Below are positions 1 through 61,996 of a stretch of 61,996 nt of DNA, one piece after another. Every line of letters begins with the position of its first letter. The first letter of the stretch is position 1. The notes beneath the pieces were generated by a model. It saw only the letters and a program-made list of their open reading frames with translations, made no database searches and was not told where the DNA came from. A program made the translations under genes and the position numbers. The stretch is taken from IMG/VR virus record IMGVR_UViG_3300043436_000818, positions 1-61,996 of that record. One strand, given 5' to 3'. This DNA comes from a virus (Duplodnaviria > Caudoviricetes).

Positions 1-157
1 AATGAGCAACAATAAACAAAGTATGAAACTATACACTAAAGAAGACTTTTTAAAAGCCGCTGAATTTTGCGAAGTGTCAATGATAGATGCGAAATATATA
101 ATTGAACGCATTGATGAAGTAAGCGACCCCATCGAACTACCAAGTGATGAGGAGATA
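1..157 (+). repeat. 157-bp exact repeat (copy at 31636-31792; first 127 bp also at 61870-61996)
   Basis: Direct comparison from aatgagcaacaataaacaaag to gatgaggagata. Confidence 0.95.
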
Positions 158-837: not shown

Positions 838-850
838 ATACCTATATTTG
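819..850 (+). promoter_or_regulatory. Bacteroidota-type primary sigma promoter
   Basis: GTTG-N20-TATATTTG (843-850). Confidence 0.65.
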
Positions 851-854
851 AAGA

Positions 855-954
855 GTTAACTGAGATGTCGCATATCTCGAAAGTTACAAGATTTTTGCCC
901 GATTGGGTTAGTCTGCGATGCGACCGCAACTAATTCAGTTGGGCGTTTTTTTTT
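855..954 (+). ncRNA. Structured leader RNA with two hairpins, complementary 7-nt loops and a U-tract
   Basis: Loops GTCGCAT (867-873) and ATGCGAC (918-924); covarying counterpart at 59614-59711. Confidence 0.8.
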
Positions 955-955
955 A

Positions 956-1495
956 ATGAAAGAATCAATAATAATCTATCGCAGTTTTTATGAAGCGATT
1001 AAAGACTTGCCAAAAGAACAACAAGCAGACGCTTGGAATGCAATCTTTGAGTATGGTTTAAACCAAACCGAAGTACAATTAACTGGTATTGTTTCCACAG
1101 TATTTAAGTTAGTCAAACCTCAATTAGATGCCAATCTTAAACGCTATGAAAATGGCAATAAAGGAGGTAGACCAAAGAACCAAACAGAAACCAAACAAGA
1201 ACCTAACTATAACCAAACAATAACCAAAGTCGAACCTAATGTAAATGTTAATGTAAATGATAATGAAAAGGTTAATGTAAATAAGAAGTTTATTAAACCC
1301 ACACAAGACCAAATTAGAGAGTATATGTTAGAACAAAGAATGAACGATGAATCCGAACGCTTTTACAACTACTATGAGGCAGTAGGATGGAAAGTAGGAC
1401 GTAACCCAATGAAGAATTGGAAAGCAGCGGTAATTACTTGGAAGAAGAACCAACAACCTATACAAACCATTAACAACAATTATAGAGTATTATGA
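956..1495 (+). CDS. Replication initiator (DUF6291-like N-terminus)
   Basis: SIIIYRSFYEAIKDL N-terminus, FYNYYEAVGW..MKNWKAA C-terminus, internal iterons, next to helicase. Confidence 0.8.
   Translation: MKESIIIYRSFYEAIKDLPKEQQADAWNAIFEYGLNQTEVQLTGIVSTVFKLVKPQLDANLKRYENGNKGGRPKNQTETKQEPNYNQTITKVEPNVNVNVNDNEKVNVNKKFIKPTQDQIREYMLEQRMNDESERFYNYYEAVGWKVGRNPMKNWKAAVITWKKNQQPIQTINNNYRVL
1178..1282 (+). repeat. Putative replication origin A: six 11-bp iterons followed by AT-rich 6-mers
   Basis: AACC(A/T)AA at 1178, 1189, 1200, 1211, 1222, 1233, then (AATGTA)n-like tract. Confidence 0.75.
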
Positions 1496-2778: not shown

Positions 2779-3030
2779 ATGGAAACAATGAAAAAAACAA
2801 TAGAAAGAACAAATGACACAAATGTATCAATGGCTAACGGATATATTGCACATAACAACATAGTCCATAAAATTCGTATTGTTAGATATAACATTAATGG
2901 TCAAGATATGGTAAGCATGATACCTGTATGTGGAACATCATATAAACGTGGTCAAGAGAGACTAATAAAAAATGAATCACATATTAATTGTGAAAAGTGT
3001 TTAAAAAGATTATCTAAACAGGGTGCTTAA
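2779..3030 (+). CDS. Hypothetical protein (CxxC near C-terminus)
   Basis: ORF between a promoter and a hairpin. Confidence 0.65.
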   Translation: METMKKTIERTNDTNVSMANGYIAHNNIVHKIRIVRYNINGQDMVSMIPVCGTSYKRGQERLIKNESHINCEKCLKRLSKQGA

Positions 3031-3043
3031 TTGCACCCTTTTA
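3016..3043 (+). terminator. Intrinsic terminator-like hairpin
   Basis: GGGTGC-TTAATT-GCACCC-TTTT; identical 26 bp at 57109-57134. Confidence 0.7.
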
Positions 3044-3055
3044 AATATTATAGTA

Positions 3056-3232
3056 ATGAATAAAAAAGATAATCGAGGAGGCATTCGCATAAATGCAGGT
3101 GCTAAACCTAAATATAGTGAGCCTACTAAAACAATTGCATTTAGATGTCCAGTATCAAAAATAAATGAAATAAAGTTAGTTGTAAAAAATCAACTTGAAA
3201 AATGGGAGGTAAAAAATGAATTATCAAGTTAA
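3056..3232 (+). CDS. Small putative DNA-binding protein
   Basis: RGGIRINAGAKPK motif; start reassigned to ATG 3056. Confidence 0.6.
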   Translation: MNKKDNRGGIRINAGAKPKYSEPTKTIAFRCPVSKINEIKLVVKNQLEKWEVKNELSS

Positions 3233-3893
3233 ACCAATAGATTACCAAGATTGCAAAGAGTGGTTTTTAAAAAAACACTATTTAAAAAGGTTGCCATCAA
3301 TCACCTATTGTTTTGGTTTATATGACAATAATATTTTAATTGGGATATGTTCCTTTGGCAATGCAGTTCCTTTGACTATGAAACGAAGTGTATGCGGTGA
3401 AGAATACGAACATTTAGTATATGAGTTAAACAGATTGATTGTAAACGACAACCACGAGAAAAACATGACCAGTTATTTTGTGGCACAATGTTTAAGACAA
3501 TTACCGAAACCTTTAATTATTGTTTCCTATGCCGATAAATCACAAGGTCATAACGGATATATTTATCAATCTACTAATTTTATTTATTTAGGTTTATCAC
3601 ATACACAAAAGGATTGGAAGATAAAAGGCGAAGAAGATAAACACTCACGCACTTTAATGGATGAATTTGCATTTACTCCTAATCGAATACAACTACTAAA
3701 AGAAAAATATGGAGATAGATTATATCAAGTAGAACGTGAACCAAAACATAGATACGTTTACTTCTTAGGAAGTAAAACACAAAGACAAAAATTCATCAAA
3801 GCATTAAGGCATCAATCACAACCATATCCAAAAGGTGACAATCAACGCTATGATGCTTCTTATCAACCAACAACACAAGCAAAACTATTTTAA
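3216..3893 (+). CDS. mom: Mom-like DNA modification enzyme (GNAT fold)
   Basis: KHYLKR, ELNRL, IVSYAD..GH.GYIYQSTNF, KHRYVY. Confidence 0.75.
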   Translation: MNYQVKPIDYQDCKEWFLKKHYLKRLPSITYCFGLYDNNILIGICSFGNAVPLTMKRSVCGEEYEHLVYELNRLIVNDNHEKNMTSYFVAQCLRQLPKPLIIVSYADKSQGHNGYIYQSTNFIYLGLSHTQKDWKIKGEEDKHSRTLMDEFAFTPNRIQLLKEKYGDRLYQVEREPKHRYVYFLGSKTQRQKFIKALRHQSQPYPKGDNQRYDASYQPTTQAKLF

Positions 3894-31434: not shown

Positions 31435-31640
31435 GCAACGAAACACAACAAACAATAGTTCAGTGGATTAGACACCAAATAAAACAACAAGGTGTTAGTC
31501 ATTATTTTACAACAAGGGAAATACTTGATAGAGCTGAACAAATGGAAAATGAGCAACGTAAAAAAATTTGGAACGAAGCATTAAAATCAGTTGAAAAAAA
31601 ATTAGAATTATTAAAAGAAATCTACGGAGGTAACAAATGA
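31431..31640 (+). CDS. QTAVEW-like mini-protein
   Basis: QQTIVQW, AEQMENEQ, YGGNK end. Confidence 0.65.
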   Translation: MSNETQQTIVQWIRHQIKQQGVSHYFTTREILDRAEQMENEQRKKIWNEALKSVEKKLELLKEIYGGNK

Positions 31641-31792
31641 GCAACAATAAACAAAGTATGAAACTATACACTAAAGAAGACTTTTTAAAAGCCGCTGAAT
31701 TTTGCGAAGTGTCAATGATAGATGCGAAATATATAATTGAACGCATTGATGAAGTAAGCGACCCCATCGAACTACCAAGTGATGAGGAGATA
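31636..31792 (+). repeat. Internal copy of the 157-bp repeat (A/B junction)
   Basis: Identical to 1-157. Confidence 0.95.
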
Positions 31793-32611: not shown

Positions 32612-33202
32612 GTGCTAACATTGGAACACATAGCCCACATGGATGTCAAATGGAGGAAGATGGCTAATTACCTTGGTGCAAGGTGGGGGGATATTGACGA
32701 TTGTGTTCAAAATATGTATTTAAAATTAGCGGAAATACAGGAAACAGAGGGTTCATTGCAACGATTGGAAACACCATCAGGTGGTGTGAATACCTTTTAC
32801 ATTTTTAAAATTCTACAATCGGCAGTTATTAACGTATATCGTGCAGAGAACAAGGTATATGACCATGAGGCACAATTTAACCCAATAGAATCTCCCGAAG
32901 AATCCGAATACAGGTATCAACAATTGATGGCACGGATTAAGGAGGTAATTGACACGATGCATGAATATGACCAAATGATTTTGGAATTGTATTTTGTCTA
33001 TGGGCATAGTTTACGGCAAATTGAAAAGCGTACAGGGATAACAGTTACATCGGTTTATAACACCTTGAAAAACGCCAAACAACACATTAAAAACCATTCA
33101 AAAGAATTATATGAGCAATACATACAACAGAAAGCAGACGAAGAAACCATCGCAAGGATTGGGGGATTCGGTGGAGAAGTTCACGGAAGCGACTGGGATT
33201 AA
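32612..33202 (+). CDS. ECF-like sigma factor
   Basis: DDCVQNMYLKL; YDQMILELY...SLRQIEKRTGITVTSVYNTLK. Confidence 0.8.
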   Translation: MLTLEHIAHMDVKWRKMANYLGARWGDIDDCVQNMYLKLAEIQETEGSLQRLETPSGGVNTFYIFKILQSAVINVYRAENKVYDHEAQFNPIESPEESEYRYQQLMARIKEVIDTMHEYDQMILELYFVYGHSLRQIEKRTGITVTSVYNTLKNAKQHIKNHSKELYEQYIQQKADEETIARIGGFGGEVHGSDWD

Positions 33203-53336: not shown

Positions 53337-54623
53337 ATGCCCGATCAGAAAATAACGCAACTAACTGCGATAACCACAATTGATAATTCCGACCCACTAC
53401 CCATAGTGGATTTAACGGATGATACTACCAAAAAAATTACCATTGCACAATTAAAGGCACAAGCTCCCGTACAATCGGTAGCAGGTAAAACGGGTGCAGT
53501 TACATTGGCGGCATCGGATATTGGTGCAGGTACTGTGGACAATACCGAATATGGGTATTTAAATGGCGTTACCTCCGCAATCCAAAACCAATTAAATGCA
53601 AAACAAGGTGCATTGACATTAACAACAACGGGTTCAAGTGGTGCAGCTACGTTGGTAGGTGATACATTGAACATCCCACAATATAGTGGAGGTGGTTCAA
53701 TTCCTGATGGAGATAAGGGAGATATAACCGTAAGCAATAGCGGTGCAACTTGGACAATTGATAATGGAGTTGTAAGCGATGCAAAAATAGCCACGGGCAT
53801 TGATGCCGCTAAGATTGGTGCAGGTACGGTGAGTAATACTGAATTTGGTTATTTGGATGGGGTAACGAGTGCGATTCAAACGCAATTAGATTCTAAGGTA
53901 GACGAAAACGCAGCGATTACAGGAGCAACAAAAACTAAAATAACTTACGATTCTAAGGGTTTAGTAACCGCAGGAGCAGACGCAACCACTGCGGATATTG
54001 CCGATAGTTCAAATAAGCGATATGTAACCGATGCTCAATTAGTAGTTATTGGAAATACAAGCGGAACGAATACGGGTGATAATGCAGTAAATAGTTTATA
54101 TAGCGGATTGGCTACGAGCAAACAGGACACACTTGTAAGCGGTACCAATATTAAGACAATTAACTCTACATCATTGTTAGGGACGGGTAATATATCCGTA
54201 GCCCCTGCGAGTGGAATTGATGCAACTGCAATTGGTTCGGGTTCTGTATCAAATACGGAGTTCGGGTATCTCGATGGCGTTACGAGTGCAATCCAAACGC
54301 AAATCGACACCAAAACAAATAAACTAATTACCGCTAACAGACAGACTGCATCCTACACATTGGTTGCATCTGATGCGGATAAGTTGGTGGAAATGAATGT
54401 AGCAAGTGCTAATAACTTGACCGTACCTGCATCGGTATTTACAGCAGGGACACAGATTTTATTGGCACAATACGGAGCAGGACAGACCACAATCGTTGCA
54501 GGTTCAGGGATGACAATAAGAAGCAATGGCGGTAAATTAAAATTATCGGCTCAATATAGTGGAGCTACGTTGGTTTTCATATCGGCTACGGAAGCGTATT
54601 TATTTGGGGATATTGCGTCATGA
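53337..54623 (+). CDS. Tail fibre-like protein with three internal repeats
   Basis: IG.G.V.NTE(Y/F)GYL(N/D)GVTSAIQ.Q three times. Confidence 0.78.
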   Translation: MPDQKITQLTAITTIDNSDPLPIVDLTDDTTKKITIAQLKAQAPVQSVAGKTGAVTLAASDIGAGTVDNTEYGYLNGVTSAIQNQLNAKQGALTLTTTGSSGAATLVGDTLNIPQYSGGGSIPDGDKGDITVSNSGATWTIDNGVVSDAKIATGIDAAKIGAGTVSNTEFGYLDGVTSAIQTQLDSKVDENAAITGATKTKITYDSKGLVTAGADATTADIADSSNKRYVTDAQLVVIGNTSGTNTGDNAVNSLYSGLATSKQDTLVSGTNIKTINSTSLLGTGNISVAPASGIDATAIGSGSVSNTEFGYLDGVTSAIQTQIDTKTNKLITANRQTASYTLVASDADKLVEMNVASANNLTVPASVFTAGTQILLAQYGAGQTTIVAGSGMTIRSNGGKLKLSAQYSGATLVFISATEAYLFGDIAS

Positions 54624-57108: not shown

Positions 57109-57134
57109 AAACAGGGTGCTTAATTGCACCCTTT
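57109..57134 (+). terminator. Terminator-like hairpin
   Basis: Identical to 3016-3041. Confidence 0.7.
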
Positions 57135-57147
57135 AAATTAAACGAAT

Positions 57148-57375
57148 ATGGAAACAACAATAAAAGTATTATGCACGGCACAGGAAGCCTTTGCATTAAT
57201 TGATTTACTACCAAAAGAATCATTCATTCAATTGGTACAGAACGATCCTACCTACGGGTTGAATGGTTCAGGGGATTTCTATGTGGTGTGCATAGACAAT
57301 TCAAACTATTATTTTTCGCATTCCCGATTATTCAATTTGGGTATGCAGGTTCAAAAAAAGATTGCTAATAAGTAA
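57148..57375 (+). CDS. Hypothetical protein
   Basis: ORF. Confidence 0.6.
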   Translation: METTIKVLCTAQEAFALIDLLPKESFIQLVQNDPTYGLNGSGDFYVVCIDNSNYYFSHSRLFNLGMQVQKKIANK

Positions 57376-59392: not shown

Positions 59393-59421
59393 AAAAATAG
59401 GGGGTTATTACACCCCCTATA
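59391..59421. terminator. Hairpin, possibly a bidirectional terminator
   Basis: ATAGGGGG...CCCCCTAT preceded by an A-tract. Confidence 0.7.
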
Positions 59422-59476
59422 AATCTATGAACGGATAATTTTGAAAACAATCGGCACAAATATAATGAATTTCTAT

Positions 59477-59577
59477 AAACAAAAACAGCCCCGTAAGGAG
59501 CTGCAATTTGTAACGGCATCAGTCAGTCCGTTTGATAATTTTTGTTTACATTTTAGAAGGATGTGTTTAACGACTGC
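59477..59577 (-). ncRNA. Putative ~100-nt divergent small RNA
   Basis: Minus-strand TATATTTG (59589-59582) and minus-strand terminator CAGCTCC-TTAC-GGGGCTG-TTTTT. Confidence 0.45.
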
Positions 59578-59601
59578 GGTACAAATATAAAATTATTTTC
59601 G

Positions 59602-59609
59602 TATATTTG
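59602..59609 (+). promoter_or_regulatory. -7 promoter element upstream of leader RNA B
   Basis: TATATTTG 4 nt before GTTAACT, as in genome A. Confidence 0.65.
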
Positions 59610-59613
59610 TATT

Positions 59614-59711
59614 GTTAACTGGAATGTGAGAGATTCCGAAAGTTAAAAGACTATTGCCCGTTGGGTTTGCGTGTACTCTCACTACCGCAGATTCGATGGG
59701 CTTTTTTATTT
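59614..59711 (+). ncRNA. Structured leader RNA (counterpart of 855-954)
   Basis: Loops GTGAGAG (59626-59632) and CTCTCAC (59676-59682). Confidence 0.8.
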
Positions 59712-60458
59712 ATGGAAGAAACAAACTATTTTGTAATATTTCCAACCGAGTTACTGGAAGTATTAACGCCCCGACAAGCAATATTAATCGGGATCATCAC
59801 AGGTATGGCAAAAAAACAAGGTTACGCATACCCAAGCAACCAAACATTATCAAACCTATTGAACGTGAGTATTGATTGTATTAAACGTGATTTAGCGGAA
59901 TTGGAGGAAAAGAAACACATTTATCGTGAAATCATTAGGAACGATAAACAAGAAGTAATACAACGCAGAATTTACCCTACGCATTTAAAACGCACCGAGG
60001 TGGGTGCAGAAATACCCCGAGGGGTGGGTGCAAATTTACACGGAGGGTCGGTGCAAAAATCCGCCATAGATAATAATAATAGTTATAATAATAAATTAGA
60101 TAAAGATAATTATATAACTATCGCAGGGCGATTGTATGATAGGGATGAACTTTTTGAACTATGTTGGAAAGCATATCCAAGAAAAGAGGGAAAGGCCGCA
60201 GCACGGAAAACGTGGGGGAAATTGAAAGTGGAGGATATCCAGTTAATACAAAAGCATCTACCATTATTTAAAAAAGAAAGTTCCGCAAAAGAAAAAAGAT
60301 ACATCCCACATTTTTCAACCTACCTAAACCAACGCAGATTTGAGGATGAGTTAGAACCATCCAATATGGGCGGCATCCTAATGGATAAAATAAACAAGCT
60401 TACTAATGAAATCGGTCATTCACTAAATAACACTTTACAAATCATTACAAATCAATAA
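59712..60458 (+). CDS. Replication initiator (N-terminal winged HTH)
   Basis: GYAYPSNQTLS...IKRDLAELE; WKAYPRKEGKAAA...HFSTYLNQRRF; internal iterons; start set at ATG 59712. Confidence 0.85.
   Translation: MEETNYFVIFPTELLEVLTPRQAILIGIITGMAKKQGYAYPSNQTLSNLLNVSIDCIKRDLAELEEKKHIYREIIRNDKQEVIQRRIYPTHLKRTEVGAEIPRGVGANLHGGSVQKSAIDNNNSYNNKLDKDNYITIAGRLYDRDELFELCWKAYPRKEGKAAARKTWGKLKVEDIQLIQKHLPLFKKESSAKEKRYIPHFSTYLNQRRFEDELEPSNMGGILMDKINKLTNEIGHSLNNTLQIITNQ
59999..60118 (+). repeat. Putative replication origin B: three 23-24-bp iterons plus an AT-rich tract
   Basis: GGT(G/C)GGTGCA at 59999, 60023, 60046. Confidence 0.72.
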
Positions 60459-61723: not shown

Positions 61724-61884
61724 GAATTGTTGTTAAACACAAAAACACGGAAGTTGTCATCGAGGATGGCGAAACTAAAACCGACACTAATTCCAATCTA
61801 ATCTACTACAATCAAAAGTATTTATTAGAATTGTTGGACAAGATTTTTAAAGAGATTAAAGCATTGGACAATGAGCAACAATAA
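61720..61884 (+). CDS. 54-aa hypothetical protein
   Basis: Near-identical to 31038. Confidence 0.7.
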   Translation: MRIVVKHKNTEVVIEDGETKTDTNSNLIYYNQKYLLELLDKIFKEIKALDNEQQ

Positions 61885-61996
61885 ACAAAGTATGAAACTA
61901 TACACTAAAGAAGACTTTTTAAAAGCCGCTGAATTTTGCGAAGTGTCAATGATAGATGCGAAATATATAATTGAACGCATTGATGAAGTAAGCGAC
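61870..61996 (+). repeat. 127-bp terminal overlap (circular assembly signature)
   Basis: Identical to 1-127; 127 is a common maximum assembler k-mer. Confidence 0.95.

What the first reader, a model, noticed from the sequence alone, without database searches (positions are those of the whole stretch)
843..958. Kissing-loop leader RNA with a phage-specific 7-nt code upstream of the replication initiator (copy A)
Seen: a TATATTTG promoter element, 4 nt, then hairpin 1 TAACT-GAGAT-[GTCGCAT]-ATCTC-gaa-AGTTA. After a 10-nt linker comes hairpin 2: a 16-bp stem (897-912 with 929-944, four G-U pairs), a 1-nt bulge, TGCG-[ATGCGAC]-CGCA, then a T9 tract and the initiator ATG. The two 7-nt loops are exact reverse complements. 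Genome B has the same fold with changed stems and a different complementary loop pair, in front of a non-homologous initiator. G-U pairs indicate an RNA structure on the + strand. Inference: a loop-loop switch controlling termination or translation of the replication operon; a released short RNA could act in trans as a sequence-specific immunity or incompatibility signal. Known analogies are P1 c4, P4 CI RNA and IncI/IncB rep-leader pseudoknots, but I do not recognise this fold.
Basis: partly seen in the sequence, partly recalled or inferred. Interest (0 to 1): 0.92.

Follow-up and report, generated by a model that had tools for sequence, protein, structure and literature searches.

The report
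Kissing-loop leader RNA before phage replication genes
A roughly 100-base structured RNA sits in front of the replication genes of many uncultured freshwater phages; its two hairpin loops always match each other while their sequence changes from phage to phage, which suggests an RNA-to-RNA recognition code controlling replication genes.

Summary
Copy A spans 843-954 and copy B 59602-59707. Each has a Bacteroidetes-type -7 promoter box, a bulged hairpin 1, a 10-nt linker, a 20-bp hairpin 2 with a U-run (an intrinsic terminator), and then the start codon of a replication-module gene. The two 7-nt loops are exact reverse complements.

It is a family, not a chance pair. 63 viral and 8 metagenome contigs were found by pattern. 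A covariance model hit 12 of 13 helicase-anchored loci and 56 of 80 DUF6291-anchored loci. Across 44 distinct sequences the loop-loop helix is 99.7% paired. All 7 of its pairs show double substitutions and none shows a G-U pair, while the stems carry many G-U pairs. I read at least 22 different loop pairs. Only the + strand folds well. Rfam 15 has no match.

Function is inferred. My best reading is a self-contained attenuator leader that also yields a small RNA, which gates the replication operon by RNA-RNA loop recognition and probably also acts in trans (as with P4 CI, IsrK or plasmid incompatibility RNAs). "Phage-specific" is overstated: one code recurs in many contigs with different initiators. 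No transcription data, host or cultured phage was found.

The parts
843..850 (+). Copy A: Bacteroidetes sigma-A type -7 promoter box TATATTTG. The predicted transcription start is G855.
   Evidence: Sequence. The box is conserved at fixed spacing in 39 aligned homologues (T3, A4, T7, T8 invariant; G10 in at least 90%). The -7 box lies at -12 to -5 from the start site in Flavobacterium (PMC6847099 passages; PMC9723704 passages).
856..887 (+). Copy A hairpin 1: outer stem, 3-nt 3' bulge (GAA 879-881), 5-bp inner stem, 7-nt loop GTCGCAT (867-873).
   Evidence: The inner stem is 97-100% paired, with compensatory changes at 4-5 of its 5 pairs.
887..896 (+). Copy A: A/U-rich 10-nt linker between the hairpins.
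   Evidence: It is partly conserved (consensus close to AAAAGATATTT).
897..944 (+). Copy A hairpin 2: 16-bp lower stem with 4 G-U pairs, 1-nt bulge, 4-bp upper stem, 7-nt loop ATGCGAC (918-924) complementary to loop 1.
   Evidence: 17 of its 19 pairs show compensatory changes in A4.
946..954 (+). Copy A: T9 run. Together with hairpin 2 it forms an intrinsic terminator. The start codon of the DUF6291 gene follows at 956.
   Evidence: The U-run is conserved in 44 of 45 aligned members. DUF6291 assignment.
956..1495 (+). Copy A downstream gene: DUF6291 protein, first gene of the replication module. A DnaB-like helicase follows at 1492-2721.
59602..59609 (+). Copy B: -7 promoter box TATATTTG. The predicted start is G59614.
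59615..59646 (+). Copy B hairpin 1 with loop GTGAGAG (59626-59632).
59656..59701 (+). Copy B hairpin 2 with loop CTCTCAC (59676-59682), followed by T6 at 59702-59707.
59712..60458 (+). Copy B downstream gene: HTH_36 / phrog_270 replication initiation protein.

Best explanation
The element is a self-contained transcription unit of about 96-100 nt that also serves as the leader of the phage replication operon. A Bacteroidetes-type promoter starts the RNA one base before hairpin 1. Ten bases later comes a long hairpin 2 with a U-run, which is an intrinsic terminator ending 0-13 nt before the first replication-module start codon. RNA polymerase must therefore read through hairpin 2 to express the replication genes, and most transcripts should end there as a small RNA. 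The feature under strongest selection is a 7-bp, Watson-Crick-only helix between the two apical loops. Its central three base pairs are hypervariable between phages. I infer that loop-loop recognition sets how much transcription, and then translation, passes into the replication genes. I also infer that terminated leaders act in trans on nascent or read-through leaders carrying the same code. That would make a dosage-sensing, code-specific feedback comparable to plasmid copy-number RNAs, the P4 CI RNA and IsrK. Shown: the anatomy, the covariation, the strand specificity, the genomic position and the conserved promoter box. Inferred: the start and end of the RNA, the read-through requirement, the effect of the kiss, and the trans action.
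For: Structure and covariation. In A1 (39 distinct sequences) the loop-loop helix is 100% paired, 6 of 7 pairs have double changes, and the whole structure is 99.3% paired against 84.6% in shuffles (0 of 500 reach it) and 31-48% when slid. In A4 (44 distinct sequences, including divergent members retrieved through proteins rather than through the motif) the loop-loop helix is 99.7% paired, 7 of 7 pairs have double changes and there are 0 one-sided changes. Hairpin 2 is 96.4% paired with abundant G-U. The covariance model that made A4 holds no pseudoknot, so the loop pairing is not an artefact of fitting.

Loop diversity. I read at least 22 loop pairs: 7 and 15 more by eye.

Strand. + strand folds are -36.3, -33.1, -29.9, -28.3 and -27.9 kcal/mol; the - strand gives -23.2, -19.7, -16.4, -16.2 and -21.4.

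Promoter. The -7 box is conserved at fixed spacing, and its known position at -12 to -5 places +1 at G855 and G59614.

Position. In the 65 pattern-found elements the next ORF starts 0-13 nt after the U-run in 64; the 65th locus ends there. Downstream genes are DUF6291, HTH_36 initiators, Lin1244_N and unknowns. R1 hits 12 of 13 helicase-anchored loci and 56 of 80 DUF6291-anchored loci, nearly all ending about 10 nt before the gene. There is one copy per genome in the window.

For trans action. The loop motifs have no other enriched target in the window. The core of the loop helix is as variable as the most variable stem positions, yet shows no G-U intermediates. From A-form geometry, two complete hairpins (about 11 and 20 bp) plus a coaxial 7-bp kiss cannot be bridged by a 10-12-nt linker within one molecule, whereas a head-to-tail dimer fits (inference, not computed).

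Co-transcriptional pairing is plausible: without the 3' arm of hairpin 2, the MFE of copy B and of L354 pairs loop 1 with the loop 2 segment.

Precedents. In IsrK the short terminated isoform acts in trans on its own read-through isoform, and the P4 CI RNA pairs with seqA and seqC to terminate the replication operon (passages of PMC4825925).
Against: No transcription evidence: the only RNA-labelled runs hold contigs of relatives and show no ends. No alternative antiterminator helix is predicted, and hairpin 2 is far more stable than a 7-bp kiss, so how read-through is achieved is open. Codes are not phage-specific: GTAGAAG occurs in 38 and GTAAGAG in 18 of the 65 elements, in front of different genes. 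Much of the code turnover may reflect exchange of whole modules. Helicases 96-99% identical to A's sit behind elements with other codes, while a contig whose helicase is only 72% identical carries an element identical to copy A. At least 14 DUF6291 loci have no element, so it is dispensable for that gene family. No integrase or repressor was seen in the 30 ORFs scanned, so a lysogenic immunity role is unlikely. The steric argument was not modelled.
Confidence: 0.45

Rival explanations
1. A purely cis-acting kissing loop or pseudoknot. Loop 1 pairs with the loop 2 segment within the same nascent transcript. This either delays completion of the terminator (read-through) or locks hairpin 2 over the translation initiation region. 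There is no trans role, and the loop diversity is drift plus module exchange.
For: Both partners lie 44 nt apart on one RNA in every member. Truncated transcripts favour the loop 1 to loop 2 pairing. Regulatory kissing loops between a 5' domain and the expression-platform hairpin are known in cobalamin riboswitches (recalled, not read here). In Bacteroidetes, structure within -20 to +20 of the start codon lowers translation (PMC6847099 passages), and the 3' arm of hairpin 2 ends 7-9 nt before the AUG.
Against: By simple A-form geometry the full fold with a complete kiss is strained (inference). Drift alone does not explain a Watson-Crick-only helix whose core varies as much as the stems without any G-U intermediate.
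Confidence: 0.27
The terminator merely ends it, and the position before the replication genes is incidental.
For: It has its own promoter and terminator. Two mutually complementary loops on one RNA is the design of the phi29 pRNA (recalled). In the phage-associated ROOL and GOLLD RNAs, kissing loops previously detected by covariation proved to be intermolecular (passages of bioRxiv 10.1101/2024.12.08.627333). A head-to-tail dimer fits the hairpin and linker lengths (inference).
Against: The U-run abuts the start codon of a replication-module gene in 64 of 65 elements, which points to coupling with that gene. There is no Rfam pRNA match. The genomes encode a DnaB-type helicase and initiators rather than a phi29-type protein-primed module.
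Confidence: 0.13
3. A DNA-level signal. The two 7-bp motifs are inverted half-sites for a sequence-specific protein, or part of the replication origin or a single-strand initiation signal. The RNA fold would then be secondary.
For: The loop-loop 'helix' has no G-U pair in any of about 290 cells, which is what inverted DNA repeats would give. The site lies beside the initiator and helicase genes.
Against: The motifs sit exactly in the apical loops of two hairpins whose stems carry many G-U pairs and fold well on the + strand only. The code does not track the downstream initiator family: GTAGAAG occurs with DUF6291, a 74-aa ORF and a 235-aa protein; GTCGCAT with DUF6291 and Lin1244_N; GTGAGAG with HTH_36 and a 272-aa protein. 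There are no repeated copies or iterons of the motif elsewhere in the window.
Confidence: 0.06
4. An ordinary terminator of the upstream operon plus a chance upstream hairpin. The complementarity has no function.
For: Hairpin 2 with its U-run is a textbook intrinsic terminator. In copy A the upstream ORF ends 6 nt before the promoter box.
Against: There are at least 22 covarying loop pairs with 99.7-100% pairing, and 0 of 500 shuffles reach the observed values.
Confidence: 0.01

Closest known systems
Bacteriophage P4 CI RNA with seqA/seqC, and P1/P7 c4 RNA (same-strand antisense control)
   Same: The complementary partners are encoded on the same strand within the leader of the operon they control. 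In P4 that operon holds the replication genes, and pairing causes premature termination (PMC4825925 passages). Specificity can differ between related elements (recalled for P1/P7).
   Different: There is no Rfam match to the C4, IsrK or SeqA models. Here both partners are 7-nt hairpin loops inside one 96-100-nt unit that has its own promoter and intrinsic terminator, so no processing step is needed. The phages show no lysogeny genes in the ORFs scanned.
IsrK of the Gifsy-1 prophage
   Same: One promoter gives a short terminated RNA and a read-through mRNA, and the short form acts in trans on the long form (PMC4825925 abstract and passages).
   Different: IsrK activates translation by opening a long-range helix. 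It has no kissing-loop pair and no hypervariable code. It is enterobacterial and has no sequence relation to this element.
Plasmid copy-number and incompatibility RNAs (ColE1 RNA I/RNA II, R1 CopA/CopT, IncI-alpha/IncB Inc RNA with the rep-leader pseudoknot)
   Same: Fully complementary 6-7-nt loops initiate recognition, the target is the replication primer or initiator leader, and loop changes create new specificity groups (recalled knowledge).
   Different: Those effectors are countertranscripts from the opposite strand. Here neither copy contains a Bacteroidetes -7 box on the minus strand (read directly), the minus strand folds poorly, and both loops are on the sense RNA.
phi29-family pRNA
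   Same: One RNA carries two mutually complementary loops that covary between phages (recalled).
   Different: There is no three-way junction or packaging-motor context, no Rfam hit, and a different replication module.
Cobalamin-riboswitch regulatory kissing loop
   Same: A loop of a 5' element pairs with the loop of the hairpin that controls expression (recalled).
   Different: There is no ligand-binding aptamer; hairpin 1 is only about 30 nt. No Rfam match.

Membership tests
Intrinsic (Rho-independent) terminator | A stable G+C-clamped hairpin immediately followed by a U-run | tested here: met
   Hairpin 2 has 19-20 bp plus T9 in copy A and T6 in copy B. The U-run is conserved in 44 of 45 aligned members. 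The simple scanner missed it.
P4 CI / P1 c4 / IsrK-SeqA type same-strand antisense RNAs | Match to the curated Rfam models of these RNAs | tested here: not met
   0 matches at gathering score in the whole window. Only noise (E of 0.2 or more, scores far below gathering) in 780-1010.
P4 CI / P1 c4 / IsrK-SeqA type same-strand antisense RNAs | Complementary segments on the same strand in the leader of the controlled (replication) operon | tested here: met
P4 CI / P1 c4 / IsrK-SeqA type same-strand antisense RNAs | The effector RNA accumulates and pairs in trans, causing termination or translational change | not testable with these tools
   The RNA-labelled runs held only contigs of relatives.
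P4 CI / P1 c4 / IsrK-SeqA type same-strand antisense RNAs | Temperate element in which the RNA confers immunity | tested here: inconclusive
   No integrase or repressor among the 30 ORFs scanned against Pfam and PHROGs. Not all ORFs were scanned.
Plasmid antisense copy-control RNAs (ColE1, R1, IncI-alpha/IncB) | The effector is transcribed from the opposite strand across the target loops | tested here: not met
   No CAAA core of an antisense -7 box lies within 855-954 or 59614-59707 (reading). Minus-strand folds have z of -1.0 to -2.5 against -2.3 to -5.2 for the + strand. Promoters of other types were not excluded.
Plasmid antisense copy-control RNAs (ColE1, R1, IncI-alpha/IncB) | Recognition through fully complementary 6-7-nt hairpin loops upstream of a replication initiator | tested here: met
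phi29-type pRNA | Rfam pRNA model match and a phi29-like genome context | tested here: not met
   No Rfam hit. The module has a DnaB-like helicase and DUF6291 or HTH_36 initiators.
   Only a geometric argument is available. The script machine was lost, so no co-folding was run.
Riboswitch with regulatory kissing loop (cobalamin type) | A conserved ligand-binding aptamer upstream of the kissing hairpin | tested here: not met
   The RNA starts 1 nt before the roughly 30-nt hairpin 1. No Rfam riboswitch match.

The most novel reading that the evidence does not exclude
Effector and target are the same molecule. The terminated leader of the replication operon recognises nascent leaders of its own code through two reciprocal kissing loops (a head-to-tail dimer). 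The hypervariable 3-bp core of the loops is then an orthogonal address code that lets related, co-infecting and apparently virulent phages meter their own genome copy number and replication-gene expression without cross-talk. This would be an RNA-only incompatibility system in phages that needs neither an antisense promoter nor RNA processing.
Probability: 0.3. Interest if true: 0.85.

Novelty: new variant of a known kind. Interest (0 to 1): 0.72.

Why it matters
If the reading holds, this compact, modular RNA part of about 100 nt controls the replication genes of a widespread group of freshwater phages. The hosts are probably Bacteroidota, a phylum that lacks Shine-Dalgarno-based control and where RNA regulation is little explored. 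It would be a natural set of more than 20 potentially orthogonal kissing-loop pairs on one scaffold. That makes it directly usable for testing how loop sequence sets RNA-RNA specificity, and useful as orthogonal regulators in Bacteroidota. It would also extend plasmid-style incompatibility logic to phages that look virulent. Even if the function differs, the family is a clean case of a covariation-proven loop-loop contact whose intra- or intermolecular nature can be settled with simple experiments.

Tried and rejected
- **Rfam.** The gathering-score scan of the window gave 0 hits. The permissive scan of 780-1010 gave only noise.
- **Other targets of the loops.** The four 7-mers occur 1-3 times each in the window, at chance level, and show no extended pairing elsewhere.
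- **Hosts and prophages.**
  - R1 found nothing in 5 Bacteroidota genomes.
  - R1 found nothing in 151 genomes of the family of G001, but few candidates were scored, so this says little.
- **Cultured phages.**
  - The DUF6291 relatives in Riemerella phages GRNRAP2 and PJN03 and in one faecal contig have no element.
  - blastn of two elements against 50,697 GenBank phage records gave only short chance matches.
- **Expression.** Of 22 runs listed, the 5 RNA-labelled ones hold small shares. I laid 4 of them (X16, X17, X19, X20). They are contigs of relatives at 90-99% identity and show no informative ends, and one 185-nt contig that spans 799-974 comes from a run that is probably DNA. There is no evidence either way.
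- **Metagenome pattern scan.** Only 8 are true elements and none adds a new code.
- **Literature.**
  - DUF6291: 0 papers.
  - Searches on kissing loop, terminator, phage, replication and on Bacteroidetes, phage, structured RNA found no description of this motif.
  - The main text of the IMG/VR catalogue of 8,495 candidate RNAs (PMC10690425) does not mention it among the terms searched.
- The script machine was lost. As a result, three planned analyses were not done: correlating codes with other genes, an exhaustive tally of codes, and RNA co-folding.
- **Chance or plain terminator.** Rejected.

Full report
**What is in the window**

The window is a 61,996-base virus record that IMG/VR classes as having direct terminal repeats. 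It consists of two related phage genomes laid end to end, 1-31635 ("A") and 31636-61869 ("B"). An identical 127-nt stretch occurs at 1-127, 31636-31762 and 61870-61996. All long ORFs are on the + strand.

The finding lies in A at 843-958.
- TATATTTG at 843-850.
- Hairpin 1 at 857-886 with loop GTCGCAT (867-873) and a GAA bulge.
- A 10-nt linker.
- Hairpin 2, pairing 897-912 with 929-944 (16 bp, four G-U pairs), with bulge C913, TGCG/CGCA and loop ATGCGAC (918-924).
- T9 at 946-954 and ATG at 956.

RNAfold reproduces hairpin 2 exactly (-39 kcal/mol, z = -4.5, 0 of 200 shuffles as good). The second copy is at 59602-59707, with loops GTGAGAG and CTCTCAC.

**It is a family**

A pattern made from the two conserved flanks of hairpin 1 found 77 IMG/VR loci. 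Of these, 64 have the 15-nt spacing. Together with the two window copies, 65 of 66 carry the exact reverse complement of their own loop 1 within 60 nt downstream. The exception, L037, is an unrelated chance match. Seven loop pairs occur in this set.

That pattern forces conservation of hairpin 1, so I also retrieved loci through neighbouring proteins and searched them with a covariance model (R1).
- 12 of 13 loci found with A's DnaB-like helicase have the element. The thirteenth is cut at the gene.
- 56 of 80 loci found with a DUF6291 alignment have a hit, nearly always ending about 10 nt before the gene.
- Folding 20 of the 24 non-hit loci showed three more members by eye (L361, L339, L397), at least 14 loci with no element because the gene sits inside an operon, and three unclear cases. 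The other four non-hit loci (L375, L376, L379, L408) were not folded.

The divergent members lose the outer stem and the bulge of hairpin 1 but keep complementary loops. They add 15 further loop pairs (read by eye).

**Covariation**

| Measure | A1, 39 distinct sequences | A4, 44 distinct sequences including the divergent protein-anchored ones |
|---|---|---|
| Loop-loop helix paired | 100% | 99.7% |
| Loop pairs with changes on both sides | 6 of 7 | 7 of 7 |
| One-sided (G-U) changes in the loop helix | none | none |
| Whole structure paired | 99.3% | 96.6% |
| Shuffled control | 84.6% (0 of 500 reach the observed value) | 69.1% (0 of 500) |
| Slid controls | 31-48% | 34-47% |

In A4 hairpin 2 is 96.4% paired with many G-U pairs, and the hairpin 1 inner and outer stems are 97.1% and 92.5% paired. 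R1 contains no pseudoknot, so the loop columns were aligned as unpaired positions. The loop pairing is therefore not produced by model fitting.

The two outer positions on each side of the loop helix are mostly constant (G, U ... A, G in loop 1). The three central pairs are changed in 16-22 of 44 sequences.

The fold belongs to the + strand. Five elements give -36.3 to -27.9 kcal/mol (z = -5.2 to -2.3) on the + strand, against -23.2 to -16.2 (z = -2.5 to -1.0) for their complements.

**Context**

The -7 box TAnnTTTG is conserved at fixed spacing. In Flavobacterium this box lies at -12 to -5 from the start site (passages of PMC6847099; PMC9723704). That predicts +1 at G855 and G59614, one base before the hairpin 1 stem, and an RNA of about 96-100 nt ending in the U-run.

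The next ORF starts 0-13 nt after the U-run in 64 of 65 elements. That ORF is one of:
- a DUF6291 protein (the majority, and copy A, where a DnaB-like helicase follows);
- an HTH_36 / phrog_270 replication initiator (copy B);
- a Lin1244_N protein;
- one of several unknown small proteins.

The initiators of A and B show no significant similarity (E = 0.42). Each genome in the window has exactly one element.

The loop 7-mers are not enriched anywhere else in the window. No integrase or repressor turned up in the 30 ORFs scanned. The scans did find terminase, Erf and exonuclease recombination genes, methyltransferases, an endolysin and a sigma/Q-like protein. The phages therefore look virulent, and they come from lake-water metagenomes.

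**How it most likely works**

Shown: a promoter-proximal hairpin and a terminator hairpin, with loops that must pair, placed so that polymerase has to pass the terminator to reach the replication genes.

Inferred:
- Most transcripts end at the U-run and accumulate as a small RNA.
- Read-through transcripts keep the 3' arm of hairpin 2 only 7-9 nt from the AUG. In a phylum without Shine-Dalgarno sequences, where structure in the initiation region lowers translation, this should also damp translation.

I could not decide with these tools whether the kiss forms within one molecule or between molecules. Three points favour an intermolecular component.
- With standard A-form dimensions, an 11-bp and a 20-bp hairpin stacked on a 7-bp kiss span about 100 Å. 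A 10-12-nt linker cannot bridge that, whereas two RNAs head to tail fit comfortably.
- The helix core is hypervariable but strictly Watson-Crick. This looks like selection on specificity rather than drift.
- In ROOL and GOLLD, kissing loops first inferred from covariation proved to be intermolecular (passages).

A transient intramolecular pairing during transcription is also plausible. Without the 3' arm of hairpin 2, the best fold of copy B and of L354 pairs loop 1 with the loop 2 segment.

My preferred model combines the two. The nascent leader can pair in cis, and accumulated terminated leaders of the same code compete or dimerise with it. Passage into the replication genes would then fall as genome copies rise. 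The closest documented logic is the P4 CI RNA acting on its replication operon, and IsrK, whose short isoform acts on its own read-through isoform (PMC4825925). Plasmid copy-number RNAs are a further parallel (recalled).

**Against this reading**

- There is no transcription evidence.
- No alternative antiterminator helix is predicted.
- The same code is shared by many contigs and by different downstream genes.
- Code differences between close relatives may come from exchange of the whole leader-initiator module. Helicases 96-99% identical to A's lie behind other codes, while a contig whose helicase is only 72% identical carries copy A's element unchanged.
- The element is absent from at least 14 DUF6291 loci.

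**Comparison with known systems and novelty**

No Rfam 15 family matches. No GenBank phage record contains the element at blastn sensitivity, and the nearest cultured relatives (Riemerella phages) lack it.

It works most like the same-strand antisense systems (P4 CI, P1 c4, IsrK) and like kissing-loop copy-control RNAs. It fails their membership tests in three ways: it matches no model, it has no opposite-strand effector, and it needs no processing. It shares only the two-complementary-loop design with pRNA.

I class it as a new variant of a known kind. I found no description of it in print (searches, and the term search of PMC10690425).

**Limits**

The script machine was lost. Loop codes beyond one search were read by eye. 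Host assignment to Bacteroidota rests on the promoter box and distant protein relatives only.

Noticed in passing
window 1-127, 31636-31762, 61870-61996: Three identical 127-nt copies of the start of a small gene. The record looks like two related genomes of about 31.6 kb and 30.2 kb joined head to tail, with a 127-nt terminal overlap. That is compatible with an assembly path through a shared repeat rather than one 62-kb phage. IMG/VR calls it DTR and 100% complete.
   Followed up: partly
window 3016-3072 and 57109-57165: A shared hairpin-plus-T-run (terminator-like) sequence begins both copies of a 57-nt repeat that is 75% identical between genomes A and B (family D9).
   Followed up: no
window 53520-54313: Three diverged copies (69-73% identity) of an 83-nt unit lie inside the 428-aa tail or virion-structural gene 53337-54623. 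This looks like an internal repeat of a fibre-like protein.
   Followed up: no
window 3216-3893: A Mom-like DNA modification protein (Pfam Mom 1e-40; phrog_1384) sits just downstream of genome A's replication module.
   Followed up: no
window 32612-33202: Genome B encodes a 196-aa protein with weak matches to RNA polymerase sigma factor and Q-like antiterminator PHROGs. It could bear on how the leader terminator is read through.
   Followed up: no
window 59393-59600: In genome B the element is preceded by about 200 nt of non-coding DNA containing further hairpins, including a G5/C5 stem at about 59400-59418 just after the upstream ORF (read). Genome A has only 5 nt between the upstream stop codon and the promoter box.
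   Followed up: no
L339:1385-1470, L397:1375-1490: Divergent versions of the element have different loop lengths: an 8-nt complement in L339 and a 6-nt complement in a G+C-rich L397 with a branched hairpin 2. The family is therefore wider than model R1 detects.
   Followed up: partly
window 956-1492 versus 59712-60455: The two otherwise unrelated initiators share a short C-terminal W-K...K-A-A...T-W-K-like stretch (BLASTP segment with E = 0.42, not significant). Both hit phrog_16304 in different regions.
   Followed up: no
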